64,000 bases of DNA from a virus. Below are positions 2,964 through 51,202 of the stretch, piece by piece. The stretch lies in IMG/VR virus record IMGVR_UViG_3300013101_002049, positions 1 to 64,000 of that record. One strand, written 5' to 3'. Numbering within the stretch: the first letter of the stretch is position 1; every line of letters starts with the position of its first letter. Below the pieces are notes generated by a model. That model was not told the origin of the DNA and ran no database searches. It worked only from the letters and a program-made list of their open reading frames with translations. A program made the translations under genes and the position numbers.

Positions 2964-3009
2964 ATTTGAAGTCTTTTTTGCAAATTATATATAAGGAGGA
3001 ATGGTAATT

Positions 3010-3615
3010 ATGTTTATTCCCAGACATCCTGTAGTGGAGAATCAATTTTGTCAATTTAATGAGACAAGCACGTCTACTGGTGTAGGTGCTGTACTCGCAT
3101 ACGCCGGTGCCGTGTGTTATCTTGTTAATGCCGCGGCAAATCAGGACGCCATTGTTGACCTTTATACTGCTGGTGATACTTATACTTCTCCTGAGAATTC
3201 ACCTTTTGGATTCTTAATGCAGAAAGTTAAGACTGGGTATCATCAAGTACACCCATCCGGTTTTTATATGCCTGGAGATTTAGGATCTTCAGATGTTGTT
3301 GCACAGCCTAAGTATAATGCAAGTGGTCAAATTAGTGGTACTAAGTTTGCTCCTGTTGGTGTGGCACATTTAGGTATTTGGGATACAGTTCACTACACTG
3401 TTGCTACTAAGGGTACAGACGCTATGAAACCTGGTGATCATCTTTACATTGATAAAACCGGTGGGTACTGTAAAGTAAGTAATAGTAGTGCTAATCAGCC
3501 AGATGGTGTTAGTACATCTGTTGCTAGAGTAGTTAAGGGTGCTAGTGCAGCACAGGTCGAGGCTAATATCGACAATACTACTTTGTATCCTATTAGAATT
3601 AAACTTCTAGTGTAA
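3010..3615 (+). CDS. putative capsid decoration/cement protein
   Basis: Directly upstream of the major capsid gene and beta-rich. Start moved to ATG 3010 on RBS spacing. Confidence 0.55.
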   Translation: MFIPRHPVVENQFCQFNETSTSTGVGAVLAYAGAVCYLVNAAANQDAIVDLYTAGDTYTSPENSPFGFLMQKVKTGYHQVHPSGFYMPGDLGSSDVVAQPKYNASGQISGTKFAPVGVAHLGIWDTVHYTVATKGTDAMKPGDHLYIDKTGGYCKVSNSSANQPDGVSTSVARVVKGASAAQVEANIDNTTLYPIRIKLLV

Positions 3616-7213: not shown

Positions 7214-7262
7214 TACTTAATATTTAAGCGAGCCAAAATTCAAATAGGAGGAAGCATACAAA

Positions 7263-28606: not shown

Positions 28607-31600
28607 TTGCCAGTCCAAGAGTTCAATTTTAATATAAAATCACAACCTATTGGAGATGAGGCTAAAAGTCTTATCAAAGCATTAAATGATTTGAAACAAA
28701 TCATAACCACTAAGCAACCGACTTCTGTGGATGTGGATACGTCTGCTCTTGAAAAGTCAATTAATAAACTTATTAGCAGTTTAGACAAACAAAGTGGTGA
28801 TTTTGGTAAGAAACTAAAAGAAGTAGCCGGTCAGCTCAAAGTTACATCAAAAGTTGAAGGTGCTGTCTCAACTCCGGATATAAAGCTATTAGATCAAAGT
28901 TTGAAAACTTTATCTAAAAAATTAGATAAACTTTCTGCGGAAGATTTGTCTAAAAAAGTGGCTATAGTTGATTTAGAAACTGCTCCAGTAAAACGTGGTG
29001 GCAAGTTAGCTGGCAAAACAGACTTTATTACTCAAGTAGGTGTTATTGAAGCTACGCTTAAAGATATTCTTACTAAAACCGCTGAGGAGTTACAAAAAGC
29101 TGGTAAGATTAAAGAGATTAATATTAAGCCATCTGCTGGTATGACAGAAGCGGATTATAAAAAGATATTTGAAGATATTGTTAAAAAAGGATTTAAACCT
29201 GTAGATTTTAATAAGTTAGTTCAACAAGGTAAACCTTTCGAAGAAGCTATGAAGGAAGTCGGTGATATTCTTAAGGATTCGGCTATTGTTGCAGGTCATA
29301 ATTTAGTTAGTTTTGATGCCAAGGTGCTTGATGCGGCTTTAAAACAAGCTAAAGTAGATATAGATCTTGCTGGTAAAGAGTATTTAGATACAGTAAGAGA
29401 AGCTAGAAAAGCATTTCCAACCCGTAAAAGTCACGCATTGGAATCTTATGAAAAAGATTTAGTTGATGCGGGAAAGACATATAGTGGTGTGGCTCATGAA
29501 GCAGCTCATGATGTTGCTGTTACTGCGGATGTTATGAAAGCGTTGGCTAAAAGTAGTAAAGAATTAGAAGCTGCTGAAAATAATTTAGGTAATTTATTTG
29601 AGCAAGTTTCAAATAAAATAACCGGATTGTTTACATCATTAACTAGAACAGAAGAAAATCTGAGTAATTTTAGTGATATTATATCGAAAGATGTTAATGC
29701 TTTTAAAGCATTTAATAATACTGTTACAGCTACAGATCAAAGTTTGGCTGAATTGACAGGTAAAGCTGATCAAGCAGCAAGAATTACTTCTGATTATGCT
29801 AAGAAGGCTAAAATTCAAATAGATGATCTTGCTAAAGTTAGATCTATGCAGGCTGCTGTATTTAAAGAGTCAACAGTTTATCCTACTGGACCTGATGTAT
29901 CATATAAGCAAACTTTTTATCCTGGTGTTAAGGCAATTAAAAAGATGGAAGTTCTTGTTGATAATTTGTCTAAATCACTAAATAAACTTCAAACAAATAT
30001 TGTTAAATCATTAGAAGGTGGTTTACGAAGTGGATGGAAAGTTCTTCAGGGTGAGCAAGGCGAAAAATTTCAACTTGGTAAAGGTGGTAGAGAATGGGAA
30101 CTTACTGTTGTAGATGTAAATAAAATACGTAGACAGTTAAAGCAGTTTAATGTAAATTTGGGCCCTGATGTTGATCCTAGAGACGCTATTCAAGCTTATA
30201 AAGAAGCTTTTGTTAAAAGAGAAGAGAGTCGTACAGAAACAAGGGAAGATGTTGCTGCTAAGGTAGAACGGTGGTTATCTCGTGTAAATCCAGAAGATTT
30301 AAGTAAATTTTCTGATACTACTAAATTATTAGCTGAACAAGTAAAAGGCGGTAAACTTACTGGAGCACAATTGGCGAATGCTCCTGCCCTACAAGATATT
30401 TATAAAGCTACTGTTTTAGAAACTAAGGCGATTGATGATTTACGTAAACAATTTTTTAAAACTATAACAGTACCAGCTGCCAGATTGACAGCACAGGGTA
30501 CTTTAGGTATAGAAACTAAATATGGAGCAGAAAGATCACTTGCTAATTTTGCTACCATAACAACTGGTTTAGAAAGATTGGCACAAGAATTTAAATTACT
30601 TGGTGGTGATTATAATGAATATTTACGTCAACTTAATAGAATAACTGAATTACCTTTTAGACCGGATCCATCAAAACAACCTGAAAAATTTAAAGCTACT
30701 GGAGATTTAGCTACTGAATTAATACAAAGAGTTAAATCAGTTGGTGGTAAAGAACTTATTTATAAAGGTTTGAGCGAAGCCGTGCAGTTACGTATGACTG
30801 AACGTGGTATGCCGACAGAGGGTTTTGATACTACTTATAGATCATTGGCTCAATTAGAGGAACAAGCATCTAAATTGGGTGTAACATCTTTGGACGTTGC
30901 TAAAGCGTTAGACCAAGTAAATTTTGAAAATTTTTATGATGTGTTAGATAGATTATATCAAACTGGTAAAACCCCGTTTATAACTGAAAAAGCTAAAGGT
31001 ATTAGTGGGGTAGAAGGAGAACGAAGTGTAAGACAGATAGCAAAAATAAAAGACGAATTATTAGGTATAATGCCGTTAGTTGAACCTGGTAGACCTAAAA
31101 GGCGCGCTTATGACGAGGAAGTTGTTAAAATTTTAACTCGTAAGGTAGCCAGTGCTAGCCCTTACGCCACTACTTTAAGACCTGAAGAACAGAAAAAACA
31201 TATAGTAGATGTTGCGTTAGCTTGGCAAGAAATGGCTGATAACGCTCGTAAATTAGGTAGAGCTGGTTTATATGCTAATGCACCAGGCTTAGGTATTCCT
31301 GAAGCGAAGCCTATTGATCTTAGTGACTCCGCTAGTTCTCAAATTAATGAGTTTAATAAAACTTCTACATCAGCGTTGAGGGATTTAAATAAAACCGTAG
31401 TAAGTGCTAGTACGGCAGGTATTCGTGGATTGGCGCCTTTTGAAAAATTTAGTTCTATTAGTCGTCAAATGTCTTATTCAGCTAACGCGCTGGCTGGTGC
31501 ACTTCCTAAAGGTGGTTTTGAATTACCTTCTCTTGTAAGTGAACGTGAGAAGGGTATGATTGAAGCAGGTAAATACGGAAAAGGTGGTTATGGTTTAAAT

Positions 31601-34600
31601 GTGTTAACCGAGCTACGTAATACTGCCGCAACATTTGAAGATCAAATAGTTATTTCTGGTAGATTAGCCGAAGCTTTTACTCGTATAGTTAAACCTTTAG
31701 TTGGACCTGCGGCGTCCATGATACAAGATATTGGCGAGATGGAACGTGGTAAATTAGTAGGTGTTACTGCTAGAGGTAAAGCTTTAGAAGCCGAAGCTAG
31801 AGGTATGGATCCAAAAGATTTTGAAAAATTGGTAGGTAAAGTAACTTCTAAATATCAAGATATACTTGGAGTGCCTAAGACATACCAAGGTCGAGCTGAT
31901 GTTGCTCAAATATCAGAAGAAATACAAAATGTAATGCGTATGCATCGCGGAGAATCAATAGAGGTTCAAACCGCAAAGTTAAGTGAAACATTTTTAAATT
32001 ACTTTGGTCGTAAATTGTCCACTAGATTTGGAACTAAAGGTGTTTCAGTTACTCCTGGTAAAATTCCTACAGATATACAAGAAATTCAAGATGTAGCTAA
32101 AGCTATGGCTGGTGGTTTAGTGGCTAAAGTTGAACCTGGCGCAGGGCTTGGTTTTGCTAAAATGCCTAAAAGTGTCGGCGAGATGATATCCGATATGTTA
32201 GAAAAGACTTTGTCAGGCGAAGATCTTGGTTGGGCAGATATGTTTAGTCAAGAAATACTTGACGATTTAATAACAAGATTACGTGCATCTGGTAATAAAT
32301 TTATAGTAGATTTATTTACTGAAGCTAGTTACGGTATAGTTTCTAAAGAAGAAGCTGAGAAACAAAAGAAATTATTTTCAGAGACAGCTAATGTTTATAG
32401 TGAACTTTTTGGTAAGTCTTTAATGGGCGGTGTTAAAGGCATAGAACAAGTTCAAGAGGACTATGTTGATAAATTAGGTCAAGCACCTTTTAAATTACAA
32501 CCTATTGAAGCCCGTATCAGTGCTCGTGGTGTAGCTAAACGCGGGTTGATGCCAGAAGTACTTGAAGGTATGGTTAATAATTTAATTGGATCTTTAGAAG
32601 AGTCTACAGCTATAAAAGATGTTGATTTAACTGCTGATCCTGGTGTTCGTAAAAAGATGAATGATTATTTACGAGCATTAACTTATTCAGCATTGGATTC
32701 GGCAGAGCAAAAAGCTGTAACTAAAAGATTAAGAGCTGAAGGTGCTAGTGAACAAGACATAGAACGTTTAAAAGATTTTGAAAAACAATGGTCTGTGTAT
32801 ACTGACATAGTTAATGAGTATGGAAAGACTATGAAGAGTTTTGTTTCTCCAAAGTTTTTGCAAATTGTGGAGGAACCTCATCTATTTAAGGAATGGTCAG
32901 AACGTGATATTTCTAAAGGTGTACGTGGGGAAAAATTAAATTTTCAAGCTTTTGCCGCTTATGCTGGTATTTTTGGTGAAGGTTCTAAAATGATGGAGGA
33001 ATTGTCTGGGGCTACATCGTTAGCGTCTCGTGAAGGATGGGAACTAATACGCGCTTTACAAATGTTAGACCCATCTATGAAAGATTTAGCTAAAACTATG
33101 ACCGAAAGTTTGAAAACTGTGAAGTTAAGTGATGTGGATGTTTTCACTGGTCGTACAGCAGAAATTGGAGAACTAGAAGAGACTATTTTTGATGTTGGTA
33201 AATTTCCAGCACCTTTTAAATTAAAAATTCCATCTACTGCTCCGGGTAAATTGGGTGAATTTGAAGATCTTTATGTACCTGGACCTGCCGCACGCGCCAC
33301 TTATGCTGAAGAATTGATGGGAGGACGCGTATCCCCTACGAATATAGCAAGATATTTGAGTAATTTAGTTGAAAGGGCTAAAAACGTTGAAAATTTGATG
33401 GCGCTTTCTAAGGAAGGCGAGTTGGATCTAAACGATGAATCGGCTCGAAAATTCGCTAATACAATAAGAGCAGAGCTTACTGAAAAATTAACTTCTACTT
33501 ATAAAGAATTTGCAGGCATTGAGCAGAAACAAGTTGTTACTCCTGCAAATATTGAATTTATGCAGAGCTATATAGATCAATTGAAAAAATCTCTTTCTCC
33601 AGTACGTCATGTAGCCCCAATATATATGACTGCTGAAGCTAAGCGTGGTAATTTAAGGTCTCAAACGGAATTAGAGTCCGTGGAATCTTACGAGCGCCAG
33701 TTAAGAAAAACAGATCCTGGCAAAATGTATAGTAAACTGCTTAGTCGTATTATGGATATTTTAATTGGAGCTCAGCCAGAATCATTGAAAGCTGAGGAAT
33801 CAAAGATAGAAAGGGCTAGGAAGAAATTTACAGAAACTGGTGATGTTCCTAAAGAATATGCTAAGCAATTTCAAAATTTGGGTAAGTTTTATGAAAATGA
33901 TTTTGATAAAATGTTGGCTGCTTTTCAAAAACGTGTTGAAGAACGACGCGCTGCTAGAGCCGCATTTGATATAGAATTAGAAGCAGGTAATTTAAAAGAA
34001 TTTTCTGAAAACGTCGGTCTTAATTTACATATGACTGTTAAGGAATCTTTAGAAAGAGCTTTGCAGTCGTTAAGTCGTGCACGAGTTTCTTATTATGAAG
34101 AATTAGCTAAACAAGTTATTGGTCCAAAACATGGTATAGAACAAACATTTTTCCAAAGAACTATCCCATTTAGTGTAACGGCTAAAGCGGTAACTGCTGT
34201 TACTGATAAAACCAAAGAGCTCGATAAAGCTATCACCAATTTGTCTAGCAGAAGTGGGTCTAATTTTGATAACATAATCGATAAACTTAAAGAAATAAAA
34301 AAAGAACATGTTGATTATATAGCAAAAGCCAAACAATTGGGTATGCCAGTACTTAAAGAAGGTGAGATTGGTATACATCCTGAGATGGCTGAACAAATTA
34401 AATTAAAGCAAGCGGGCCGAGAAACTGATTTATCTAAATTACTTTCAGAACAATTAGAAGAAGCTTATGTGACTACTGTACGATATCCATTTACAGGAAC
34501 ACTCAGTGTTCAACCTCATAAAGCTAAATTAATGGAAACCGGATTAGCCAGACAGTCATTGGCTGTACCTGGTGCACCAGAAATGAATATAGCTTCTATG

Positions 34601-43600: not shown

Positions 43601-46600
43601 GGATTACTTCTTGGTGAAACAAAGAAAGTGGAAAGTAATACAGCTGCTACGGTAGAAAGATTAGACCAGATATTGGAACAAGGTGGTGACTCAGCTGCTA
43701 TTGAGCGGATTGTTGAACGTACCAGTGGTCGTCGTAATATTATAGATAAGTTGGAATACTTAACAGAAAGACGTAATAAAGCAGCTAAAAAAGATAACAC
43801 AGAATTAGTAACGACTTATGATAGAGCCATTGATAAACTTACCTCTAAACTTGTTAGTGAAGTTGGGCCAGAAAAAGCTCTCAAATATGTTGGCAAAAAC
43901 GCTCCAATGTTTTTTGGTAAGCAAGATTATACTCAGGCTGAGTTTATAAAAAGAGCACTTGGAAATACTAATTTTGAAGGATTTAGTAAAGCTTTAGAAA
44001 GAGTTCAGCCAGGTATAACTAAAACCAAAGAATTCACAGATCTTGTTGCACTACAACAAGAGCAGTCTACAGAACAGGTGGTAAGTAATAAAAATCTTCA
44101 GAAATTATTAGCTATATACAGTACTATAGAACATTTTAATAAGGTTTCAACTAATAGACAAATAAAAGCTTTAGATTCTCAATTAGGCGAACTTGAAGTT
44201 CAAAGAAAAGAATTACAAAAAGCTGGTACACCTACAGAAGATATAACAAATAAAATAGCTGAACTTACTACACAGCGCGGAGAACTTGCAACAAGAGCTT
44301 CTGGACAAGCTATGCGTGAGGTTATAGCTCCAATAGCACTAGCTTCGCAAGAAATAGCTAAATCGTTTGGTGTTACAGATAGACAGTTGCGTATACTTGG
44401 CGGAACTATTGGTGGTACTTATCTTGCTTGGAAAGCTTGGAATAAATTAACTGGAGAACCAATTCCAGAATATATAGAAGAACTCGGCGCTAAGTCAGCA
44501 GAAGCAGCGCAACGTATGTCTCAAGAAGGTATTTCTGGTAAGGCGTGGAGAACATATTATGCTGCTAAAGATGTTGTGTTTGGTAAAAATCTTGATGAAA
44601 AGTTAAAAGAAGCAGAGAAGAAAATTAAAGAAGAAAAAGTATTAACTGAAGAAGAAACAAAACGAGCTACAGAAAAGGTTATGTATGCCGGTAAAGGCAA
44701 AGAAGCCCCACTTTTATTAGAGAGCGGCATGACTGATAAAAAGAAACCCACTGATGTGCTTAAAGATATGTTGAAGGATTTTAAAAATGATTTTAAGCAG
44801 AGCGGTGAAACAATAATTCAAGGTGCGGAAAAAGCCGAAGATAGTGTTGTTACTGGGGCAGAGGGATTTATGAGTAGGCTTAAAAAAGCTATACCAGATA
44901 AAGAGAAATTTGGTGAACTTAAAGAGGCCATGAAAGATGTATTTAAAAAGTATTACGGTAAAGGGACTGCTACGGGGGCTGGTATATTAGGAAGTGCTGG
45001 CATATATTCAGAAGAAAAGGCTGCTGAACAGAGAGAAACTAGTGCCAAAATTATGTCGGAATTGCGTAGATTGATGCGTAAATATGGTATTAAGCCAGAA
45101 GAAGATACTGTTATTTTTGGTGGCGAACGTGCAGAAGAAAGCGAAGTTAGACGAGCTGGTAAAGCTGAAAGTTTAGGGCAGGCTGTTAGACGCGCTGTTG
45201 AATATACAAAAGCCAAAGACAAAGCCAGACCAGCGGAAGATAAAATATTAGACGAAAATTCTGCTCAAACTGGAATACTACATGGAATATATGAACAAAC
45301 TAAACGTACAGCCGAAAACACTAATACTTTCTCTGAGAATTTAAGCGATGAATTAAAAGCTGGACGTGAAGATCGTAGAGATGAAGTAGATAATATTTTA
45401 ACCAATGTTGATAAATTGAGAGGTGAATATTTAGAAAGAGCTGGGACTAGAGTTAGTCCATTGAAACAAATCGTAGCAGCTTTGTTGGCGGCTACTTCTG
45501 CTGGTTATGTAAGTGAAAAAAGTGAGCAGCGTCGAAGAAATAATGAGTTAGAAAATAGAGCTGAAAAACAAGTAGAGCTTGTTGATAATATTATAGAAAA
45601 ATATCCAGATGTTATTAGCAAAGCTATCGGTGATTTTAATACTACCATCGTAAATGCCGGAGAGGGTTTATCAGTTGAAACTGAAAAAGTTCAAAAAGCT
45701 GTTGATACTGAAGCCTCAGAAAAAACTATGGTAAGCCGATTGGAAGATTTGCGTAATCGTATGACTGAAGCATATGAGAGTGTGAATGAGTCTATGGAGG
45801 AAGCTGCACAACGAATGTCTGAATTAGAATTAGCAGAAGAAATGAAAAAACAGCTTGAAGATTTAGATAACGCTATAAAGAGTTCGACAGCTATACAAAA
45901 TCTTGAAAAAAAATTCAGCGTAGAAACTAGTGGTGTATTAGCTGGTAAACGTGCTCCGCAATTTCAACTTGGTACTCAGAGCATGTTAGATTTGTCTCCA
46001 GCTGAGTCATTAACATTTAAAGAAGATTATAGTAGACCTATAATGGGTAGTATTAAACGCACAATGAATAATTTCACAGGTGCTATTGGTTCTGTTTGGG
46101 AAAAAGCTATGGGGTCCATCGGTAATGCTATTAGCACTGTTACTTTACATATTTTTGATGACACCTATTCTGATTTAGCTGAACAATATGAGCAAGGCAC
46201 TTCTGAACTATCACATTTGATGGAGGTTGCGTCTAGTATAACTACTGAAATGACTGCATTACGAGCAGCTCCTATGACAGATGAATCAAAAGCTAGATAT
46301 GAAGCTTTAGAAGATAATCTCGGTGAAATAACTGATAGGATGGGTGATTTAAATGAAAGTTTGATCAAAACTTCTGTTAGTTTACAAAGTGTTATAGCTG
46401 CTGAAGAATTTCGTATTAGAACGCTTAAAACTGAAGTTGAAGCGAGTGCTAAATTTAGCCAAGCATATGTGGGCACTATGATTCCTACTGATCCTTTTAG
46501 TTATCTTGGTAAGCAGGGATTAGGAGCTGGGGGTTTTGATTTACAATTGGCTAAAACTTCTGATGAGTTAACTAATAGTGAAAGACTTTTATTAGAAGCT

Positions 46601-49600
46601 AGAAAATCTAATAACACTGATCTTATAGATAGTATACATAAATATACCGCATTAACTTCAGTATTGGATGGTCAGAAACAACAAGCTGCTGAAACCGCTG
46701 GAAAAATCAGTAAATTAATAATAGAGTATCGAGAGCAATCTAAGGTTTTAGGAATAAATCACGATAAAGTTAAATTGATTAAAAATAGTTTAGATTCTCA
46801 GATAAAGTCATATATGACTTTAAAAGACTCTATGGATAAACATATAGAATCATTGAAAGAATTAGATGCAGTGCAATCAGGTTTAAATTTTAGTAGATTG
46901 ATTAATGAATTGCAAGGACTTAAAAAGAGTTATTTAGAGACATCTAGAGCTAATGAATTTAAACGTATTACTGAGGGTGTGGATAAGATATTAGGTGGCT
47001 CGCATCCTTTGGCTAAAGTAGCTCCATCATACGCTGCTTTACAAGCTGGGGTACCGGAAGATCAATTGTTAAACATGAATAAATATCAATTGAGAATGGC
47101 AGAGTTAGTTGCTCAACCGGGGCCTGGGCCAACACTTGAACAGGTAAATGCCATTAGGTTTGGTAAAACAGTAGATGTATGGGCTTATGAGCAAGCTAAG
47201 CAAAATGATGAATTGAGACGTCAGCGTGAACAGGCAATTCAATATAACAATGCTTTTTCTAGAGCTATTAAAACCGCCGAAGCTACTGGAACTGAGCAGG
47301 ATGTAGCGAAATTGAGAGAATTACAAGGCGCTTTTATTAAAGAAGCTAAAACAATGTATGAAGTAAAAGAGGTTGATGAGAGCGGAGTACGTTATTATAA
47401 AGGTATAGATTTCGATAAATATATAAGAGCGAGTGAAGGTTTATTTAAAGATTTAGGTTTAGGGGATATGGAATCTAATGTAACTATGCCTATTGTTACT
47501 TCTATTGATAATAATACTAAAAGAATAATAGCAGCGCTTCAAGGCAAAGATCTTTATAAAGATACAGAGAGAGGCTTTTTCAGTAAACTTTTTGGATTTG
47601 GTAATGATGATTTGATTGATAAAAAACAATCTGGTGGGTTTATTACTGGTCCTGGAGGTCCGCGAGAGGATCGTGTATTAACTAGAGTAAGTCCTGGTGA
47701 ATATGTTATAAAAGCAAGTTCGGCAAAAAATATAGCTAATAAGTATGGAGCTGGTGTATTACATTCTATGAATAATACAGGTGAGATGCCTAAAGTTGCT
47801 AAAGGAGGATTAATACCTAGATTTCAAGACGGTGGTCGTCCTGATGAATTTATAAAAGCTTCTAGCACAGATGAAGTACCTGAAGGTATGGTTTATGATT
47901 ATGATTTAGGTGGTTTTAGAAAGAAAGTAACTATAGAGGATGTGGAAAGAACTCATTCTGAGGTCAAAGGCATGCTAAAAAGTATGGAAGCCTTTGATAG
48001 ATATTCACAAATGAAGGCAGAACAAGAAACCGAGGAATATATGGATCAGCTAGATGAAAAGATGAAGCAAAAATATTCCATTAGCGGTGTATTTAGGTCT
48101 TTAGGAGACAAACTAAGTGCTGCTCGTAAAAAAAATCAAGGGTTAGGATTTGATTTTTCTAAAGATAAAGGAACTGTTGGTAATATTGCTGAAGCTGTGG
48201 AAGGAGTAACCAGCACAGGTAAAGTGTTTTCTTTGGGAGTATTGGAATCTGTACCTAGATTATTCCAATGGGTTGCTCAGATTGGTGAGGGGATGTTTGG
48301 ATTAGGTAAAACAGCCATTACTAAAGGTACTAAAGCCGAAACTTATACAAAGGGTTTTAAAAATATAATTGATTTTTATACTAAGAAAGATGTATTGAAA
48401 GAAACAGGGTCTATACTTAAAGATACTGGTATCGGTTTAACTAAAGGTATAGGTGATATGTTTGTAAGACTAGGCGAAGGTGATATGACAGCCGCTTATG
48501 ATGTAGCTTCTTTGGTTGCTCCTATTAAAAGTGGAGCTGCTTTAAAATCAGGCAAGTTTTTTAAAGCAGGAAAACTTGCGCCTTCTAAGTATTACAAAGA
48601 GCTATTATCGAATAGAAGTACTGATACAATTGCTAAAAGTTATCGTAAATTGTTTCCTAATAAAAAGGTTTTTGAAGATACTATGGAAGCTTATTATAAA
48701 AAAGTTTATTCTGAAACGATGGATCCAAGTAAAATAGACGCGTCTATTCGTTTGATAAATGAAATTAGGAAAGGTGCTATAATTGAGCCGTCTTTAGGTG
48801 AAAAAGTAATGGGGGCAGGAATTGGAGTTAAAACTAAGGCTAGTGAAATTTTTAGTGGTATTAAATCTAAATCTAAAGATGCTTGGAGTTTTGGTAATAA
48901 AAATATTGATGAAGCAATACGCATTATGAGTGATAAGTCTAAGAAATATAGAAAGGGGTTTAGTGAAAAATATAAACAAGCTGGTGGTATATCTGGTATA
49001 GCTGATAAAGCGGCTAGTAATTTGAATAAATTTGATGATTGGGTGGATGAGCTTGTGAAATCAGCTGGCCCAAAAGTTTCTAGTATGGCAAATACTGCTA
49101 AAGAATATACTAAAACTGGTATTGGAAAAGCTAAAACTGCTGCATTTGGAGTAACTAAGAAAGCTGCTAAATATACGGCTTTAAAAGGACTGGATCTGTT
49201 AACACCAAGGTCACTTAAATGGTTGTATAATTTTATAAAAGAAAGACCAGAGATTTTTTCTGATATGGCAAAGAAAGGAAAGTCTTTTTATGAGTCATTT
49301 GCTAAAAAATTTAGCGGCAGCGAAAGTGCTGATTGGGGTAAAAAAGCTAGTGGTTTTTGGAACCGTTGGGATGCTGGAGAATATAGTAAAAAGTCTGGTA
49401 ATTATAGATGGAGATCAGGTTCTAGTGAAAAAGCAGAATCAGGTAGTTATAGAAATAGAAGAGATTTTTGGGAAGAGGGTTTAAAAAATGAGGATCCTGA
49501 AGCTTATAGAAAGTATCAACAGTATAAAGAAACCGCAAAGGAAAATATGCGTCGTCGCGCTGAGGAACAAGCGGCATATAAGAGTAGTCGAAAGTCAGCA

Positions 49601-51202
49601 AAAGATATTAGAGATGAATTACTACGGGCTAAAGCTAAATATGGGTCTCAATCAAAAGAATATCAAGATTTATTTAATGATTTTTTAAATAAATATGTTC
49701 GTGGAAAAGGTGGGTCAGTTGATAGTGGTATAAATAAGTTTTCATTGAGTGTTGCTCATCCAGAAGGTTTTGGAGAAGGCGGTTTAATAAAATCGCTTTG
49801 GAAAGCTATATTTGGTCAGGCTAAAAAAGAAGATAAAACAATTACTTCGGTATTTCAAGCATCCGATGTGATTAATAAGCGTAAAAAATCTCAAGCTGAA
49901 CAGATAAAAGCTATTTTTGGTGAAAAAAAATCTGGTGGGTTAATAGGTTTTAAAGATGGTGGTGGTGTATTATCTACTAAGGCTTACCAAGATGTACATA
50001 AGTATTTTGTAGATGAAGAAGCCGAGACGCCCGAATGGAATAAGGAAATAGCTGGGTATCTTAGAACAAGAATAAGTAAAATAGAAGATTTAGACGCTTA
50101 TTATTTATCTGAAGATTTAAAAAAGATTGAAGAAGGAGATAAAAAAAGTTGGAAGGAATTTTATAATAAGATATTAGATTATGAAGATATTGCTGATAAA
50201 GTTTTTGAGTCTATTCCAGCCCCTATTATTCCGAAAAAAGAATCTGGTACTGGTGGTTATAATTTAAAGAAAGGAATGAAGGCTGCTAGTGGTAGAACTC
50301 GTGCTGCGCAATTAAAAGAAATTATGGATGCTACGAAAGCACAGGGTGGTTTGTTAAAGGGGTATGCTAAAGGCGGCGGTACTGATAGTATGCTAGCGGC
50401 TTTAAGTCCTGGTGAATTTGTATTAAATAAAGAGGCTACTGATAAAATAAGTAGTAAATATGGGCTAAAATCACTTGAATTTATGAATAAAGAAGGTGAA
50501 CTGCCTGGGTTTGCTTTAGGCGGTATTGTAGCTAAGCGGAGTTATGCGGATGGTGGTCCAGTTTATGATAGTAAAGCTATAACTAATGTATCTGTAGATA
50601 CTTTAAATACACAGCAGTTGGGTGAAGAGATAGGGGATAGTATTGCTAGAAAACTTGAATCTGTTACATTTAAACCAGTCGAGCTTGCTGAAGATTCTAT
50701 TGAAATTTCCTCAGATTCTATTAAAGGTATATCAGATGCCATTGAGAGTGTAAATAGGGGTGTAACGGCTGTAGGAGCTGAGGAGGCCACTACAAAGATT
50801 GACGAATTTATCGACGCTGCTAACTCTAGATTAGAAACATTTTCTGTAAAAATAGATGAGCAAAGTGAATCGATTGAGATACTACATACAAGTATTGAAG
50901 AAGCTACTGATAGAATTAATGATATAGATGTTACTTCTATAAATATGAAGTTGGGTGAGTTAGAACTAAGTGTTTCCGAATTAGTTACTAAAGATGAATT
51001 AAATGTTTCAGGTAGTGATCTTGATTCGAATATAGATTATAAAATACATGAAGCTATTAATTTTATAGAAGAGAGATATATATCTGGAGTTAAAACAGAT
51101 ATAAATATCATTAATGGTAAAATAAGTGATTTACAATATGACCTGGATGATACAAAAGATCACCTTAATGGTGAAGTAAGTAGATTGGGATGGGGGATTT
51201 AA
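28607..51202 (+). CDS. giant (7,531 aa) tape measure polyprotein fused to a DEDDh exonuclease, a virion RNA polymerase and a PD-(D/E)xK nuclease
   Basis: Single uninterrupted ORF (TTG start, AGGGGG RBS) at the canonical tape measure position; sub-domain motifs are listed in the following features. Confidence 0.9.
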   Translation: MPVQEFNFNIKSQPIGDEAKSLIKALNDLKQIITTKQPTSVDVDTSALEKSINKLISSLDKQSGDFGKKLKEVAGQLKVTSKVEGAVSTPDIKLLDQSLKTLSKKLDKLSAEDLSKKVAIVDLETAPVKRGGKLAGKTDFITQVGVIEATLKDILTKTAEELQKAGKIKEINIKPSAGMTEADYKKIFEDIVKKGFKPVDFNKLVQQGKPFEEAMKEVGDILKDSAIVAGHNLVSFDAKVLDAALKQAKVDIDLAGKEYLDTVREARKAFPTRKSHALESYEKDLVDAGKTYSGVAHEAAHDVAVTADVMKALAKSSKELEAAENNLGNLFEQVSNKITGLFTSLTRTEENLSNFSDIISKDVNAFKAFNNTVTATDQSLAELTGKADQAARITSDYAKKAKIQIDDLAKVRSMQAAVFKESTVYPTGPDVSYKQTFYPGVKAIKKMEVLVDNLSKSLNKLQTNIVKSLEGGLRSGWKVLQGEQGEKFQLGKGGREWELTVVDVNKIRRQLKQFNVNLGPDVDPRDAIQAYKEAFVKREESRTETREDVAAKVERWLSRVNPEDLSKFSDTTKLLAEQVKGGKLTGAQLANAPALQDIYKATVLETKAIDDLRKQFFKTITVPAARLTAQGTLGIETKYGAERSLANFATITTGLERLAQEFKLLGGDYNEYLRQLNRITELPFRPDPSKQPEKFKATGDLATELIQRVKSVGGKELIYKGLSEAVQLRMTERGMPTEGFDTTYRSLAQLEEQASKLGVTSLDVAKALDQVNFENFYDVLDRLYQTGKTPFITEKAKGISGVEGERSVRQIAKIKDELLGIMPLVEPGRPKRRAYDEEVVKILTRKVASASPYATTLRPEEQKKHIVDVALAWQEMADNARKLGRAGLYANAPGLGIPEAKPIDLSDSASSQINEFNKTSTSALRDLNKTVVSASTAGIRGLAPFEKFSSISRQMSYSANALAGALPKGGFELPSLVSEREKGMIEAGKYGKGGYGLNVLTELRNTAATFEDQIVISGRLAEAFTRIVKPLVGPAASMIQDIGEMERGKLVGVTARGKALEAEARGMDPKDFEKLVGKVTSKYQDILGVPKTYQGRADVAQISEEIQNVMRMHRGESIEVQTAKLSETFLNYFGRKLSTRFGTKGVSVTPGKIPTDIQEIQDVAKAMAGGLVAKVEPGAGLGFAKMPKSVGEMISDMLEKTLSGEDLGWADMFSQEILDDLITRLRASGNKFIVDLFTEASYGIVSKEEAEKQKKLFSETANVYSELFGKSLMGGVKGIEQVQEDYVDKLGQAPFKLQPIEARISARGVAKRGLMPEVLEGMVNNLIGSLEESTAIKDVDLTADPGVRKKMNDYLRALTYSALDSAEQKAVTKRLRAEGASEQDIERLKDFEKQWSVYTDIVNEYGKTMKSFVSPKFLQIVEEPHLFKEWSERDISKGVRGEKLNFQAFAAYAGIFGEGSKMMEELSGATSLASREGWELIRALQMLDPSMKDLAKTMTESLKTVKLSDVDVFTGRTAEIGELEETIFDVGKFPAPFKLKIPSTAPGKLGEFEDLYVPGPAARATYAEELMGGRVSPTNIARYLSNLVERAKNVENLMALSKEGELDLNDESARKFANTIRAELTEKLTSTYKEFAGIEQKQVVTPANIEFMQSYIDQLKKSLSPVRHVAPIYMTAEAKRGNLRSQTELESVESYERQLRKTDPGKMYSKLLSRIMDILIGAQPESLKAEESKIERARKKFTETGDVPKEYAKQFQNLGKFYENDFDKMLAAFQKRVEERRAARAAFDIELEAGNLKEFSENVGLNLHMTVKESLERALQSLSRARVSYYEELAKQVIGPKHGIEQTFFQRTIPFSVTAKAVTAVTDKTKELDKAITNLSSRSGSNFDNIIDKLKEIKKEHVDYIAKAKQLGMPVLKEGEIGIHPEMAEQIKLKQAGRETDLSKLLSEQLEEAYVTTVRYPFTGTLSVQPHKAKLMETGLARQSLAVPGAPEMNIASMTEEVVKPLREHIDKLVAEREQLWERGGDDAAQKAAELSKEIEGLISLTKELTPKFVNMEQKLDFDGDALFLHTGQVEDSRMEIKKHFEALGDDVTSVRSLFNTLFTAVEETNVKALSEMAYIFGKKQPMEKGFKFLEKPYIEKEVSNLGLDEVFKSLSTYESKKPETDVDFKNWVSKYLTENVFPEVFRKAGGTEAERAAFAGKATAAFAGGGAGIPMGPGAGEFEKTASKLLEELIRRRLWEQKYSDAIVGQLYKLQTGQTVEGISRVARLTELETGFGAGLAGTGKRKFEPATEFLERWPKESIVLGNRPVQEFAARMNEILRFVIQKGLDEKHAGVEAVGKHIIANVGKKGGAEAIMNIMEKEEDQFKDLWKFNDQIKQEAKLRLGKHPTETLREELKRFQPDIAEDMLAGMSRQELIDRITKQIDLSAVFEELFRMIKRQAIKGYVKELRGGLEDLPVEQRAKTEAEVARMGGFEPYARKKIEEESMEDRGISILKYVTTNLEPLYKLRTSMETIGTVGSRAGIKPDVDIILPEQKREAERLSDVYENTLKTAYVLSRSMKGIVSGAQGGAHSMMVLSSVQKRLEELSAIAKRAEDLGVPMAAEAPIPTKRMEYAGGAYMAEAPTLFEDIWSKALMSQTRLGPIEQLDPLESWNKNIERLNKVKKQTESELENLSQTLGIPMIGKEEKSKVFFEFGEKNEDVVKAIDLRSKAFGEFLSTKQPELTPEEVRKSTDEYAKFMTDLLKFQVSMSEQARRVSEAMKAVPFQKTYLEKSFAGLASRAGKSPTEIANEMSSMEESSSKAFDKEIVAKRERRLQDIQDYFAKQRTSTAQSMIDVAATDQPQVIPDRDLADKVRQAAQDSIQQIAEVVNETVVYKTRQALKGLERRAGGGASAGGEEKRLAELYRASGIAGGGGYGGVPQPEAILRQMLGLTEPNMLMEATAFRGTALHRRKQLEMGRKYKQFGGFELEGLTRYIEEGQDLMTGHFDVIYKESEDAQRKLADIKTIYSGRTFKALETLANNISKGGITLDSALKKFEESQSAFDKELARRLNSYISQINFYLESNKDAIGEIIVVSAEDPTKEAKIEIGGFDPALFAKDIQVVKDAKMKVAELLEALSKTDDPETIKSLFSDYRGVYEALVDKLGEVTFETVSAALPTRPTFEVLEQSRLKSWEEFASTLNKEDQDLFEKLSAEYLTAFERMRGPRAEKVFKKWRMEGVPAGGAGAPPAGGAPPGGAGGGDGFDDDEFSEFNKKIQAILNKLRQGIEIDPSEILKLMELYEQARRKFNELMGSRDPKLFKDMTAKYQKLIEEIKQTVSTEYKGGFESAYRMYNMREKVDSNMADNLKKMEKDYSRFRTLDIETEAPDRPEAMHKNLKALFEVARRRHGLVGSDTKKFGADIESLIKSVTEEGPGLDISRQIIAAVDKLPKEKRGYTVSIWKHYRKAVSEYFLKELDRLQEEIESARTEDEARESYAQYEKTLRHFRETIVKNLGKVSDIYTEKAFGGTREFVDPGLAKLTGTFRTKDEISEIARASSRLSGEFQPIVDMLIGEGSGEDIEALVPPIEKVRRAFEMLTSDAEEFKKTLTDEDAFRRFGDQIAKQWDFTKTVKGVTQLRAALESWNRMQVAGIGDVGPSASYTEAQRKNIEETIKLLRQLEKSFVPTGGTAASEMGLVGVPGFLSTSEQEALHKRNIAMTRKYFATPEEEGGPERGRAFTYRYKIVDPSTKQIVRNVAEEFRGLGDTVDSTGRKMGVFRQRTEDLLKQFQERRGFGQAFGRVIRWGLASNVVYGSVKALKGMVNVISDVEYGIAVLRQVMSPLESDFEGITMAAVDFAKEFGLPIRNVIDSMRVFAQQGLAQADVIDRTRTSTLAANVTTLNAADATEALTAATKVYGLQGQSTLRFLDSWSQVEARHAITSADLANALKKAAAAAKTSGVDFDQLNAIVTGIGETSRQTGKEIGTSLRFMFRRLQGEKGPKELGKIGVPVLTPQGDIRSGFEVLGQLADKWGDLNQAQRLAIAQAIGGRRHYNSLIILMDHWGDVLDTLQDSINSKGAAERRNAIVMDTYAKKLEQVRASLTELQIQFGKFALPIAKGALTGLKLLIETISNIPTSIKVAFAAVASFFTLLTKGGSLFDKVAMSFTSSGNIFGDFIKTAKSELSKGVYEIFGEGIGGFSLDNVFKDINTEGLKQFTEATKMGDLESGLGKSVYVLAKVGRSWNNFLTDITKGSASATNKIAHMFDFIGDKLIMGGAALGEKGGPAGIITGALTAALGSVSEMAGYGTEKVAKMLGLTAEQMARLTRSSTGVVGALAPMIGSFFALKPLLSAAWDNFKKLALSASDYEKSMSGLRMLHSGELERIKDLGYEYDKLSKRMSDISISMRPDVKARQQEREEYKSPLHELGKLYGEATDYGNKLAETNIDLVSGFDKFGNAILKTTDNMKGYLEVLESAQQRKMAETELGVLGVYVKDLTKTTGLESFKNEFKKFLAEIPVIGESLAKAIKVSPAKSIEELREKVEDLIALRNKYPLTTSFDIDLNKYNQQLAEVRKSYKQTYNDFLRTLSNIPVEGLNPAQVSEMFSRPEFKEGFEVIANIEPRLQTGALRGKVNWQDVLGTEVLKKLYPSKPLDFTAQLTKGLLEQANISPRDAEAFSGDIVLFTDEIAKKYEMAGNQAILKMQETSEGIVKWTVQFFDKELSTIKELPFDKVSKFVDSIFPVQAISDRLYENIEVLKEFVAGAGAGLRGITEKTFKKDFSLGERFFSQLPTTTLLQTTKGYEPGRGFGEVPFKSGWDKWIDDNFFKPMTEYTRLLEQLKPADLPTGESELAPGLTEDIASLQDILKNNQVVLQYRAVHEDLIKSISEGSRVLKENIAAERNRNEYIVQSSGYLKGLAEDMADVNLGVKKYTDLTLQQRLALAEVGRNMQPFTTARQQYREGTVERQSIVDSITNIDKSLIAVREIGDVARSFGAALPTQDLANYIEEIAKTGDRGTGLLLGETKKVESNTAATVERLDQILEQGGDSAAIERIVERTSGRRNIIDKLEYLTERRNKAAKKDNTELVTTYDRAIDKLTSKLVSEVGPEKALKYVGKNAPMFFGKQDYTQAEFIKRALGNTNFEGFSKALERVQPGITKTKEFTDLVALQQEQSTEQVVSNKNLQKLLAIYSTIEHFNKVSTNRQIKALDSQLGELEVQRKELQKAGTPTEDITNKIAELTTQRGELATRASGQAMREVIAPIALASQEIAKSFGVTDRQLRILGGTIGGTYLAWKAWNKLTGEPIPEYIEELGAKSAEAAQRMSQEGISGKAWRTYYAAKDVVFGKNLDEKLKEAEKKIKEEKVLTEEETKRATEKVMYAGKGKEAPLLLESGMTDKKKPTDVLKDMLKDFKNDFKQSGETIIQGAEKAEDSVVTGAEGFMSRLKKAIPDKEKFGELKEAMKDVFKKYYGKGTATGAGILGSAGIYSEEKAAEQRETSAKIMSELRRLMRKYGIKPEEDTVIFGGERAEESEVRRAGKAESLGQAVRRAVEYTKAKDKARPAEDKILDENSAQTGILHGIYEQTKRTAENTNTFSENLSDELKAGREDRRDEVDNILTNVDKLRGEYLERAGTRVSPLKQIVAALLAATSAGYVSEKSEQRRRNNELENRAEKQVELVDNIIEKYPDVISKAIGDFNTTIVNAGEGLSVETEKVQKAVDTEASEKTMVSRLEDLRNRMTEAYESVNESMEEAAQRMSELELAEEMKKQLEDLDNAIKSSTAIQNLEKKFSVETSGVLAGKRAPQFQLGTQSMLDLSPAESLTFKEDYSRPIMGSIKRTMNNFTGAIGSVWEKAMGSIGNAISTVTLHIFDDTYSDLAEQYEQGTSELSHLMEVASSITTEMTALRAAPMTDESKARYEALEDNLGEITDRMGDLNESLIKTSVSLQSVIAAEEFRIRTLKTEVEASAKFSQAYVGTMIPTDPFSYLGKQGLGAGGFDLQLAKTSDELTNSERLLLEARKSNNTDLIDSIHKYTALTSVLDGQKQQAAETAGKISKLIIEYREQSKVLGINHDKVKLIKNSLDSQIKSYMTLKDSMDKHIESLKELDAVQSGLNFSRLINELQGLKKSYLETSRANEFKRITEGVDKILGGSHPLAKVAPSYAALQAGVPEDQLLNMNKYQLRMAELVAQPGPGPTLEQVNAIRFGKTVDVWAYEQAKQNDELRRQREQAIQYNNAFSRAIKTAEATGTEQDVAKLRELQGAFIKEAKTMYEVKEVDESGVRYYKGIDFDKYIRASEGLFKDLGLGDMESNVTMPIVTSIDNNTKRIIAALQGKDLYKDTERGFFSKLFGFGNDDLIDKKQSGGFITGPGGPREDRVLTRVSPGEYVIKASSAKNIANKYGAGVLHSMNNTGEMPKVAKGGLIPRFQDGGRPDEFIKASSTDEVPEGMVYDYDLGGFRKKVTIEDVERTHSEVKGMLKSMEAFDRYSQMKAEQETEEYMDQLDEKMKQKYSISGVFRSLGDKLSAARKKNQGLGFDFSKDKGTVGNIAEAVEGVTSTGKVFSLGVLESVPRLFQWVAQIGEGMFGLGKTAITKGTKAETYTKGFKNIIDFYTKKDVLKETGSILKDTGIGLTKGIGDMFVRLGEGDMTAAYDVASLVAPIKSGAALKSGKFFKAGKLAPSKYYKELLSNRSTDTIAKSYRKLFPNKKVFEDTMEAYYKKVYSETMDPSKIDASIRLINEIRKGAIIEPSLGEKVMGAGIGVKTKASEIFSGIKSKSKDAWSFGNKNIDEAIRIMSDKSKKYRKGFSEKYKQAGGISGIADKAASNLNKFDDWVDELVKSAGPKVSSMANTAKEYTKTGIGKAKTAAFGVTKKAAKYTALKGLDLLTPRSLKWLYNFIKERPEIFSDMAKKGKSFYESFAKKFSGSESADWGKKASGFWNRWDAGEYSKKSGNYRWRSGSSEKAESGSYRNRRDFWEEGLKNEDPEAYRKYQQYKETAKENMRRRAEEQAAYKSSRKSAKDIRDELLRAKAKYGSQSKEYQDLFNDFLNKYVRGKGGSVDSGINKFSLSVAHPEGFGEGGLIKSLWKAIFGQAKKEDKTITSVFQASDVINKRKKSQAEQIKAIFGEKKSGGLIGFKDGGGVLSTKAYQDVHKYFVDEEAETPEWNKEIAGYLRTRISKIEDLDAYYLSEDLKKIEEGDKKSWKEFYNKILDYEDIADKVFESIPAPIIPKKESGTGGYNLKKGMKAASGRTRAAQLKEIMDATKAQGGLLKGYAKGGGTDSMLAALSPGEFVLNKEATDKISSKYGLKSLEFMNKEGELPGFALGGIVAKRSYADGGPVYDSKAITNVSVDTLNTQQLGEEIGDSIARKLESVTFKPVELAEDSIEISSDSIKGISDAIESVNRGVTAVGAEEATTKIDEFIDAANSRLETFSVKIDEQSESIEILHTSIEEATDRINDIDVTSINMKLGELELSVSELVTKDELNVSGSDLDSNIDYKIHEAINFIEERYISGVKTDINIINGKISDLQYDLDDTKDHLNGEVSRLGWGI
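28958..29550 (+). other. DEDDh (DnaQ-like) 3'-5' exonuclease domain within the tape measure protein
   Basis: ExoI IVDLET (D122, E124), ExoII AGHNLVSFD, YLDT, ExoIII AHEAAHD (HxAxxD). Confidence 0.85.
31430..32970 (+). other. RNA polymerase beta-like (DPBB-B) region within the tape measure protein
   Basis: LAPFEKFSSISR; GLNVLTELRNTAATFEDQIVIS (cf. RpoB GYNFEDSILVS); GRKLSTRFGTKGV (cf. GDKMAGRHGNKGV); PIEARISARGVAKR (cf. PVDIVLNPLGVPSR); GEKLNFQAFAAY (cf. GQRFGEMEVWAL). Confidence 0.85.
33270..35614 (+). other. RNA polymerase beta'-like (DPBB-A) region with catalytic DFDGD within the tape measure protein
   Basis: LYVPGPAAR (cf. LPVLPPDLR); KHGIEQTFFQRTIPFS (cf. KQGRFRQNLLGKRVDYS); EIGIHPEMA (cf. 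QCGLPKKMA); VRYPFTG (cf. NRAPTLH); KLDFDGDALFLH at 34781-34816 (cf. NADFDGDQMAVH). Confidence 0.9.
37320..37930 (+). other. PD-(D/E)xK (Cas4/RecB-like) nuclease domain within the tape measure protein
   Basis: RGTALH ... E ... GHFDV ... ADIKT (D3006, K3008) ... SQINFY. Confidence 0.75.
39940..40900 (+). other. TP901/PhageMin_Tail-type tape measure core domain
   Basis: FAKEFG...VIDSMRVFAQQG...AANV..LNAADATEALTA...ITSADLANAL...DQLNAIVTGIGETSRQTGKEIGTSLRFMFRRL, followed by hydrophobic segments. Confidence 0.85.

What the first reader, a model, noticed from the sequence alone, without database searches (positions are those of the whole stretch)
28607..51202. 7,531-aa tape measure polyprotein carrying a single-chain virion RNA polymerase flanked by two nucleases
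Seen in sequence: one ORF at the tape measure locus has a TP901-type core (aa ~3780-4100). Upstream in the same chain, at least ten RpoB- then RpoC-like motifs occur in the correct order: FED (E1011/D1012, cf. E. coli beta E813/D814), K1136/K1144 (cf. beta K1065/K1073), RYP (R1959, cf. beta' R425) and DFDGD (D2061, cf. beta' D460-D464). Established knowledge: tape measure proteins are ejected into the host, and a tape-measure-fused virion RNAP is known in Thermus phage P23-45 (gp96, about 5,000 aa), so the fusion itself has precedent. Inference: this is a larger version that appears closer to cellular RNAP. It adds a DEDDh exonuclease and a PD-(D/E)xK nuclease, making an injected transcription and nuclease machine; I know of no description of this four-domain architecture.
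Basis: partly seen in the sequence, partly recalled or inferred. Interest (0 to 1): 0.96.

Follow-up and report, generated by a model that had tools for sequence, protein, structure and literature searches.

The report
RNA polymerase fused into giant tape measure
The 7,531-residue tail "ruler" protein of an uncultured large phage carries, ahead of its ruler part, a cell-type RNA polymerase flanked by two nucleases; this resembles the injected polymerase shown in 2024 for Thermus phage P23-45, but here in a different, widespread and larger lineage.

Summary
Window 28607-51202 (+) is one open frame of 7,531 codons with a TP901-type tape measure core (Pfam PF10145, E 2e-25).

- **Polymerase:** aa 430-2550 is a conserved block. 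It matches a family of ~1,100-aa stand-alone single-chain RNA polymerases found in related phage genomes (hhalign 99.0%, E 2e-18 for the beta-like half; 93.6%, E 2e-7 for the beta'-like half). That family hits Pfam Rpb1_2/Rpb2_6 and bacterial RpoB.
- **Catalytic residues:** FED-Q, K1136/K1144, R1959 and D2061/D2063/D2065 are invariant in 44-45 homologues.
- **Structure:** the fold model of aa 1850-2560 matches only RNA polymerase largest subunits (Z about 12). The first barrel did not fold confidently.
- **Nucleases:** both are supported. The DEDDh exonuclease passes Pfam RNase_T, and the second domain is Cas4-like (E 7.7e-5).
- **Not a chimera:** about 100 protein clusters share the architecture, and an independent metagenome contig bridges the junction.
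- **Cysteine:** the tape measure family has almost no cysteine (0-2 per ~7,000 aa), against a median of 18 in the stand-alone paralogue.

Delivery in the virion and polymerase activity are inferred, not shown. The fusion principle is published (P23-45 gp96, PMC10770324). This lineage with its nucleases is not in the papers I could search. Earlier agents of this scan reported the same family several times on other DNA. I rate it a new variant of a known kind.

The parts
28607..51202 (+). Single 7,531-codon ORF: tape measure protein with N-terminal enzymatic cargo
   Evidence: TTG start with GGGGGA 8 nt upstream; 0 Cys
28949..29536 (+). DEDDh (DnaQ/RNase T-like) 3'-5' exonuclease, aa ~115-310
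   Evidence: Pfam RNase_T 30.7-36.1 bits, above cut-off 24; PHROG 192 E 4.7e-14; D122, E124, D237, H297, D302 conserved in 29 sequences
29894..36256 (+). Conserved polymerase block, aa 430-2550 (single-chain two-barrel RNA polymerase with large insertions)
   Evidence: conserved in all 19 distant homologues; hhalign to the stand-alone RNAP family P0058
30962..33385 (+). Beta-like half, aa 786-1593, including the FEDQ motif (aa 1010-1013, nt 31634-31645) and GRKxxTRFGTKGV (aa 1134-1146, nt 32006-32044)
   Evidence: hhalign 99.0%, E 2.1e-18, 531 columns to P0058 118-681; invariant E1011, D1012, Q1013, R1135, K1136, R1140, K1144; motif-level hits to bacterial RpoB
34070..34873 (+). Beta'-like double-psi barrel, aa 1822-2089, with RYP (R1959) and the catalytic DFDGD (aa 2061-2065, nt 34787-34801)
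   Evidence: hhalign 93.6%, E 2.2e-7 to P0058 695-834; AF2 model pLDDT 79; Z 10.4-12.2 to RNAP largest subunits only; weak Pfam Rpb1_2 hit exactly here; invariant D2061, D2063, G2064, D2065, H2070
37424..37816 (+). Cas4/RecB-like PD-(D/E)xK nuclease without cysteines, aa ~2940-3070
   Evidence: invariant D2991, K3008, Q3061, Y3065; profile hit to 4ic1 E 7.7e-5; PDDEXK_1 in 9 of 42 members
38804..44356 (+). Conserved tape measure block, aa 3400-5250, containing the TP901-type core (aa 3838-4031, nt 40118-40699)
40952..41602 (+). Two hydrophobic, membrane-segment-like stretches, aa 4116-4134 and 4314-4332
   Evidence: Kyte-Doolittle 19-aa windows at or above 1.6
47624..50563 (+). Variable C-terminal ruler part with two copies of a tape-measure C-terminal motif (aa 6340-6403 and 7230-7319, 'SPGE[YF]V')
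   Evidence: PHROG 3547 and 25241, two stretches each

Best explanation
This is the tail tape measure protein of an uncultured, probably very long-tailed large phage. The record is 150 kb and estimated 57% complete. Its first ~3,100 residues are enzymatic cargo, in this order: a DEDDh exonuclease, a single-chain two-barrel (beta then beta') RNA polymerase with all catalytic residues kept, and a cysteine-free Cas4/RecB-like nuclease. The ruler proper follows: the TP901 core, two hydrophobic segments, and a long helical tail.

By analogy with P23-45 gp96, I infer that the protein sits in the tail lumen and is ejected into the cell envelope at infection. Its polymerase would then transcribe the first genes of the entering DNA, independently of host polymerase. 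The nucleases probably act on host or incoming nucleic acid at the entry site.

The polymerase module most likely arose by duplication of a stand-alone ~1,100-aa phage RNA polymerase, which related genomes still carry. That would parallel the virion/non-virion polymerase pair of P23-45.

Shown here: the domain architecture, the homology, residue conservation, family breadth and cysteine depletion. Inferred: presence in the virion, ejection, polymerase activity, the targets of the nucleases and the order of events.
For: - **Architecture:**
- **Homology of the polymerase block to the P0058 family:** hhalign 99.0% (E 2e-18) and 93.6% (E 2e-7), against a reversed control of E 0.21. Direct tblastn-type hits of P0058 inside tape measure ORFs reach E 2.4e-6.
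- **P0058 is a recognisable RNA polymerase:** Pfam Rpb1_2 at 25.6 bits (cut-off 25.3) and Rpb2_6 at 16.5 bits. Its family matches bacterial RpoB at 92.8%, E 4e-7.
- **Fold:** the top 50 second-look matches of the aa 1850-2560 model are all RNA polymerase largest subunits, Z 11.4-12.2, spanning E. coli beta' 344-1341. A designed double-psi barrel matches at Z 9.5, rmsd 1.7.
- **Catalytic residues** are invariant.
- **Nucleases:**
- **Family breadth:** 112 clusters at 50% identity, and nearly all full-length members are 6,400-8,000 aa. IMG/VR holds 47 loci.
- **Pairing:** the stand-alone polymerase and the tape measure polymerase occur in the same records G001, G002 and G004.
- **Cysteine:** 0-2 per ~7,000 aa in the tape measure family, against a median of 18 per ~1,100 aa in the paralogue.
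- **Not a chimera:** an independent aquaculture metagenome contig of 3,539 nt bridges 37892-41430 at about 99% identity.
- **Functional precedent:** PMC10770324.
Against: The beta-like barrel was not predicted with confidence: pLDDT was below 50 over the FED and Lys motifs. RNA polymerase second-largest subunits reached only Z 5.1-5.8, within a noisy list. Direct profile matches of the block to RpoB and RpoC are only motif-sized and barely above reversed controls. Nothing here tests virion location, ejection or catalysis. A ~2,100-aa folded polymerase cannot pass through a tail tube without unfolding. No stand-alone second polymerase was found in this phage's own incomplete record, so the P23-45-like two-polymerase scheme is unproven for this genome.
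Confidence: 0.7

Rival explanations
1. The enzymatic N-terminal part is cleaved off during tail assembly, or made for use inside the producing cell. The polymerase would then be a non-virion enzyme that merely shares an ORF with the ruler.
For: Tape measure proteins of several phages are proteolytically processed (established knowledge). Gly/Pro-rich linkers separate the modules. The DEDDh module is present in only 28 of 50 homologues, which shows the N-terminus is modular.
Against: Cysteine depletion covers the whole chain, including the polymerase, while the intracellular paralogue is Cys-rich. The fusion order is kept in about 100 clusters. The only tested case, gp96, is in virions.
Confidence: 0.12
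2. The polymerase module is virion-borne, but its main role is not gene expression. It could act as a transcription-driven motor pulling DNA into the cell, or it could make primers for replication, with the nucleases processing genome ends.
For: Transcription-coupled genome entry is established for T7 and N4. The authors of PMC10770324 propose coupling of translocation and transcription. Two nucleases flank the polymerase.
Against: Nothing in this sequence distinguishes this role from early-gene transcription, and the two roles are not exclusive.
Confidence: 0.1
3. The polymerase-like block is a catalytically dead structural relic used only as ruler or plug material.
For: The block carries large insertions relative to the 1,100-aa paralogue, about 250 aa and about 60 aa next to the catalytic loop. 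The first barrel folds poorly in silico.
Against: The Asp triad, both Lys, FED, RxP and H2070 are invariant down to 27% identity. This indicates purifying selection on catalysis.
Confidence: 0.05
4. The giant ORF is an assembly chimera that joins a polymerase gene to a tape measure gene.
For: The record is a metagenomic contig. The one contig that covers the whole stretch comes from the probable source run.
Against: There are 50 full-length collinear homologues from ENA, JGI, Logan and NCBI and 112 clusters in the exhaustive search. A contig from an independent study bridges the nuclease-to-core junction.
Confidence: 0.01

Closest known systems
Thermus phage P23-45 gp96 (also P74-26, G20c, TSP4): tape-measure-fused virion RNA polymerase (PMC10770324; PDB 8H2M/8H2N)
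   Same: Both are giant tape measure proteins with an N-terminal single-chain two-barrel RNA polymerase and a DFDGD loop. In both, the beta-like barrel comes before the beta'-like barrel. Both have membrane-type segments, both have zero cysteines, and related genomes carry a separate non-virion polymerase paralogue.
   Different: There is no significant sequence or profile match to gp96 (E 0.027), and the fold Z is 7.2-7.7 against 11-12 to cellular subunits. The polymerase block here is about twice as long (~2,100 aa against ~1,100 aa) and starts at aa ~430 rather than at the N-terminus. It has two added nuclease domains and no metallopeptidase hit. It comes from mesophilic sediment, marine or aquaculture samples and a jumbo-size genome. 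The fusion probably arose independently.
Stand-alone ~1,100-aa fused beta-beta' phage RNA polymerase family (P0058 and more than 470 relatives) in related jumbo-phage contigs
   Same: It is the closest detectable relative of the polymerase block (hhalign 99.0% and 93.6%). It shares the same motif set in the same order.
   Different: It is not fused to a tape measure. It is Cys-rich (median 18). It lacks the ~250-aa and ~60-aa insertions. I found no published description or name for it.
Cellular multisubunit RNA polymerase beta and beta' (RpoB/RpoC, Rpb2/Rpb1)
   Same: The catalytic motifs correspond: FED (beta E813/D814), GxKxxxRxGxKGV (beta K1065/K1073), ARxxG, PxLKxxxxGxPxxMA, RxP and DFDGDxxxxH. 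The fold of the beta'-like half spans beta' 344-1341.
   Different: It is a single chain with no zinc-binding cysteines. Many domains are missing or replaced. It reaches no Pfam RNAP cut-off on its own.
Other virion-delivered phage polymerases: N4 gp50 (T7-like), crAss-like phi14:2 gp66 (PDB 6VR4), phiKZ virion RNAP
   Same: They share the proposed strategy of carrying a polymerase in the particle to transcribe the first genes. They are also large fusion proteins.
   Different: Those are capsid or cargo proteins, not tape measure proteins. N4 gp50 has a different fold. gp66 belongs to the QDE-1-like clade, and phiKZ's enzyme is multisubunit.
Cas4 / RecB-family PD-(D/E)xK nucleases (e.g. SSO0001, PDB 4IC1) and DnaQ/RNase T DEDDh exonucleases
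   Same: The catalytic motif sets are intact.
   Different: The Cas4-like domain has no Fe-S cysteines. Both domains are embedded in a tape measure protein, a context I did not find described.

Membership tests
Two-barrel (double-psi beta-barrel) RNA polymerases | Beta'-type barrel carrying the DxDGD metal-binding loop | tested here: met
   DFDGD is invariant. The model has pLDDT 79, and its residues 1-240 match the archaeal A' barrel (Z 11.3, rmsd 2.3, 116 aa, 21% identity) and a designed barrel (Z 9.5, rmsd 1.7).
Two-barrel (double-psi beta-barrel) RNA polymerases | Beta-type barrel with the two conserved lysines, N-terminal to the beta' barrel | tested here: inconclusive
   By sequence it is met: K1136 and K1144 are invariant, and hhalign gives 99% to the P0058 half that hits Rpb2_6 and RpoB. 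The fold model is low-confidence there, with Z only 5.1-5.8 to second-largest subunits.
Two-barrel (double-psi beta-barrel) RNA polymerases | Bridge helix and trigger loop after the beta' barrel | tested here: inconclusive
   Structural alignments run on to model residue ~677, equal to beta' 1341. A 54-residue helix with near-invariant residues lies at aa 2222-2275. No residue-level mapping was available.
Two-barrel (double-psi beta-barrel) RNA polymerases | Template-dependent RNA synthesis | not testable with these tools
   This needs biochemistry.
Phage tail tape measure protein (TP901/PhageMin_Tail type) | PF10145 core above the curated cut-off | tested here: met
   90.2 bits against a cut-off of 33.2. 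PHROG tape measure families reach E 1e-73. tblastn hits annotated tape measure proteins of Bacillus and Lactococcus phages.
Phage tail tape measure protein (TP901/PhageMin_Tail type) | Location in a tail gene module, with hydrophobic segments | tested here: met
   Tail-fibre-like and lectin-domain genes lie on both sides. There are two hydrophobic segments. The immediate upstream genes have no family hit.
P23-45 gp96 family (Oshimavirus tape-measure RNAP) | Detectable sequence homology to gp96, and a metallopeptidase domain | tested here: not met
   hhalign of the block against gp96 1-1200 gives E 0.027, Prob 1.8%. tblastn against phages finds no match. There is no peptidase Pfam hit. It works like gp96 but is not a member of that family.
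DEDDh exonuclease (RNase_T, PF00929) | Pfam cut-off and the five catalytic residues D, E, D, H, D | tested here: met
Cas4 / RecB-like PD-(D/E)xK nuclease | Motifs D, (D/E)xK and QxxxY | tested here: met
   D2991, D3006-x-K3008 and Q3061xxxY3065 are present. The profile hits 4ic1 at E 7.7e-5.
Cas4 / RecB-like PD-(D/E)xK nuclease | Four cysteines binding an Fe-S cluster (Cas4 proper) | tested here: not met
   The whole protein has no cysteine. It is therefore Cas4-like in its core only.

The most novel reading that the evidence does not exclude
Fusion of a virion RNA polymerase to the tape measure arose at least twice. In this lineage, a cellular-type fused beta-beta' phage polymerase was duplicated. 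One copy was stripped of cysteines and expanded, then built into the tail ruler together with a proofreading-type exonuclease and a Cas4-like nuclease. The result is a three-enzyme machine threaded through the tail and delivered ahead of the DNA. Such a machine would be widespread in environmental jumbo phages.
Probability: 0.5. Interest if true: 0.85.

Novelty: new variant of a known kind. Interest (0 to 1): 0.72.

Why it matters
It would show that threading an RNA polymerase through the tail is a recurrent solution for host-independent early transcription, not a curiosity of one Thermus phage. It gives a natural matched pair for studying what a protein needs in order to be ejected through a tail and refold: a Cys-free, expanded tail-borne polymerase and its Cys-rich intracellular paralogue. 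It also raises a testable question about what an exonuclease and a Cas4-like nuclease do at the point of DNA entry, for example end processing, host DNA attack or counter-defence. Finally, it flags about 100 database clusters annotated only as 'tape measure protein' as hidden polymerases.

Tried and rejected
- **Sequence searches of the polymerase region found no polymerase.** Pfam, PHROG, PDB-sequence and phage tblastn searches of aa 500-2700 gave nothing, and neither did the family profiles. Only an 11-15-bit Rpb1_2 hit appeared at DFDGD.
- **Foldseek gave no match at E <= 0.001.** This holds against PDB for both models and against BFVD. The aa 860-1600 model was of low confidence.
- **Direct hhalign of the block to bacterial RpoB/RpoC gave only short motif hits.** Scores were 24-39, against reversed controls of 23-26.
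- **Block against gp96 or gp64 was not significant**.
- **No second polymerase was found in this phage's own 150-kb record**, nor in 12 further fragmentary relatives. All of these are incomplete, so this says nothing about absence.
- **The large ORFs downstream are lectin- or fibre-like, not polymerases**.
- **No RNA holder is listed among public runs**.
- **Not done.** Tail type (contractile or not), capsid genes and host were not determined.
Full report
**The ORF is real.** The window holds one uninterrupted frame, 28607-51202 on the + strand, of 7,531 codons. It starts at a TTG eight bases after GGGGGA. Every ORF of 100 codons or more in the 150-kb virus record lies on the + strand. CheckV rates the record 57% complete.

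Pfam places a PhageMin_Tail (TP901-type) core at aa 3838-4031 (E 2.1e-25). PHROG tape measure families cover aa ~3730-4700 and two C-terminal motifs. tblastn of aa 3400-5300 finds annotated tape measure proteins of Bacillus and Lactococcus phages at about 25% identity. Two hydrophobic segments follow the core. The flanking genes include tail-fibre-like and lectin-domain proteins. The gene is therefore a tape measure protein.

**It is not an assembly artefact.** A word-indexed search returned 50 collinear homologues of 4,271-7,954 aa from ENA, JGI, Logan and NCBI assemblies, at 28-84% identity over aa 850-2350. An exhaustive profile search of 1.84 billion representatives found 112 clusters, and nearly all full-length members are 6,400-8,000 aa. 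IMG/VR holds 47 loci on contigs up to 269 kb. In an aquaculture metagenome from a different study, a 3,539-nt contig spans 37892-41430 at about 99% identity. That stretch runs from the end of the nuclease, through the linker, into the tape measure core. The contig that covers everything comes from the probable source run and is not independent.

**The family shows three conserved blocks.** Among the 19 most distant homologues the conserved blocks are aa 430-2550, aa 2900-3100 (in about two thirds) and aa 3400-5250.

**Polymerase block: direct tests were weak.** Pfam, PHROG, PDB-sequence and phage searches found no polymerase, even with family profiles. The only exception was an 11-15-bit Rpb1_2 hit exactly on DFDGD.

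The named residues are nevertheless invariant in 44-45 sequences. These are E1011, D1012, Q1013; R1135, K1136, T1139, R1140, K1144, G1145, V1146; R1959, P1961; and L2060, D2061, D2063, G2064, D2065, H2070.

I built RpoB and RpoC alignments from bacterial loci. hhalign ranked the expected motifs first and in order:
- TFEDQIVIS with NFEDAILMS
- GRKLSTRFGTKGV with GDKMAGRHGNKGV
- DFDGDALFLH with DFDGDQMAVH
- PVLKEGEIGIHPEMA with PNLKMHQCGLPKKMA

The scores were 39, 32, 27 and 24, against reversed-sequence controls of 23-26. This is suggestive only.

**Polymerase block: the decisive link.** A 100%-complete 269-kb relative (G001) gave a weak second hit of the beta'-like profile, inside a separate 1,102-aa ORF, P0058. 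P0058 passes Pfam Rpb1_2 (25.6 bits, cut-off 25.3) and hits Rpb2_6. It belongs to a family of more than 470 proteins of ~1,100 aa on jumbo-size contigs. Its profile matches bacterial RpoB at 92.8%, E 4e-7.

The tape measure block aligns to this family in two pieces:
- aa 786-1593 with P0058 118-681, at 99.0%, E 2.1e-18, 531 columns
- aa 1822-2089 with P0058 695-834, at 93.6%, E 2.2e-7

The reversed control gave E 0.21. All catalytic motifs are in register. P0058 alone also hits tape measure ORFs directly, at E 2.4e-6 and E 0.004.

**Structure.** The model of aa 1850-2560 has pLDDT 79.3 and pTM 0.69. In an all-against-48,161-chain search, its top nine matches are RNA polymerase largest subunits: Z 10.4-11.9, with 116-254 residues aligned. 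M. tuberculosis beta' scores Z 9.5, designed and natural double-psi barrels Z 8.5-9.5 at rmsd 1.7-2.0, and P23-45 gp96 Z 7.2-7.7.

In the second look, all 50 listed entries are RNA polymerase largest subunits, Z 11.4-12.2. One is E. coli beta' 344-1341.

The model of aa 860-1600 was poor: pLDDT 65.7, and below 50 over both motifs. It gave only Z 5.1-5.8 to second-largest subunits, within a noisy list. The second barrel therefore rests on sequence homology, not on a confident fold.

**Nucleases.** The N-terminal domain passes Pfam RNase_T, and the DEDDh residues D122, E124, D237, H297 and D302 are conserved. It is present in 28 of 50 homologues.

The domain at aa ~2940-3070 keeps D2991, D3006-x-K3008 and Q3061xxxY3065. 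Its profile hits the Cas4 structure 4ic1 at E 7.7e-5. PDDEXK_1 appears in 9 of 42 members, and the domain is present in 41 of 50. With no cysteine it cannot bind the Cas4 Fe-S cluster.

**Cysteine depletion.** The protein has no Cys in 7,531 residues, and its homologues have 0-2. The paralogous stand-alone polymerase family has a median of 18 per ~1,100 aa, and neighbouring genes have up to 39. gp96 also has none. I read this as adaptation to storage in the particle and passage, unfolded, through the tail and envelope. This is inference.

**Comparison with what is known.** Chaban et al. 2024 (PMC10770324) showed that the N-terminal ~1,100 aa of P23-45 gp96 is an active, virion-borne two-barrel polymerase that transcribes pre-early genes, and that gp64 is a diverged non-virion paralogue.

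The present protein works like gp96 but is not a detectable member of its family. Its closest relative is the P0058 family, which itself is closer to cellular beta. This makes an independent fusion likely.

The stand-alone and tape-measure-borne polymerases co-occur in G001, G002 and G004. This mirrors the P23-45 pair. None was found in this phage's own incomplete record.

Neither the six listed papers that cite Chaban et al. nor that paper's supplementary survey mention other tape measure fusions. Earlier agents of this scan have already reported this family on other DNA. Those are unchecked AI notes and were not used as evidence.

**Verdict.** It is a new variant of a known kind.

Tail length is inference only. 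At 1.5 Å per residue, the ruler part alone (about 4,100 aa) gives about 0.6 µm, and the whole chain gives about 1.1 µm.

Noticed in passing
window 1-64000 and the rest of G000 (150,128 bp): All 127 ORFs of 100 codons or more lie on the + strand, and GC skew is positive in every 2-kb window. The whole sampled part is a strictly unidirectional genome.
   Followed up: partly
G000 68064-69992 (L123:4064-5989), just outside the window: A 642-aa protein combines a Mom-family domain (DNA modification), a CapR homology domain and an REase_MTES_1575 hit. It is a possible DNA-modification or anti-restriction gene inside the tail region.
   Followed up: no
window 14911-20349: A 1,812-aa ORF with 20 Cys has only a 'phage tail repeat like' Pfam hit. 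It sits upstream of the tape measure and has no PHROG match.
   Followed up: no
window 60816-63113; G000 77179-84006 and 90386-94453: Very large F5/8 type C, Laminin_G_3 and concanavalin-like lectin proteins (765, 2,275 and 1,355 aa) lie downstream. They are probably fibres or baseplate adhesins.
   Followed up: partly
homologues P0033, P0034, P0035, P0050, at aa ~3050-3127 of each: The only recurrent cysteines in the family are a CxxxxxC pair about 100 aa before the Cas4-like domain, in four distant members. Their meaning is unknown.
   Followed up: no
window 31856-31897 (aa 1084-1097): QDILGVPKTYQGRA in the beta-like half resembles the beta' motif QNLLGKRVDYSGRS (hhalign score 21, within noise). 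It may be chance, or an echo of the common origin of the two barrels.
   Followed up: no
window 34520-34780 (aa ~1972-2058): A helical hairpin of about 60 residues is inserted between the VPG strand and the DFDGD loop. It is absent from the stand-alone paralogue (gap in the hhalign alignment) and was modelled as two long helices.
   Followed up: partly
window 42346-43029 (-): A 227-codon antisense ORF lies inside the tape measure gene. It is probably spurious, given the uniform + strand coding.
   Followed up: no
G000 145862-145938: One tRNA-Thr (GGT) is the only tRNA in the 150-kb record.
   Followed up: no
L175:3215-6520 (-) in G001, and more than 470 relatives: A large family of ~1,100-aa fused beta-beta' RNA polymerases occurs on jumbo-phage contigs. 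Where a source names them, the label is 'hypothetical protein'; one sits in a Patescibacteria-labelled MAG. I found no description of it.
   Followed up: partly
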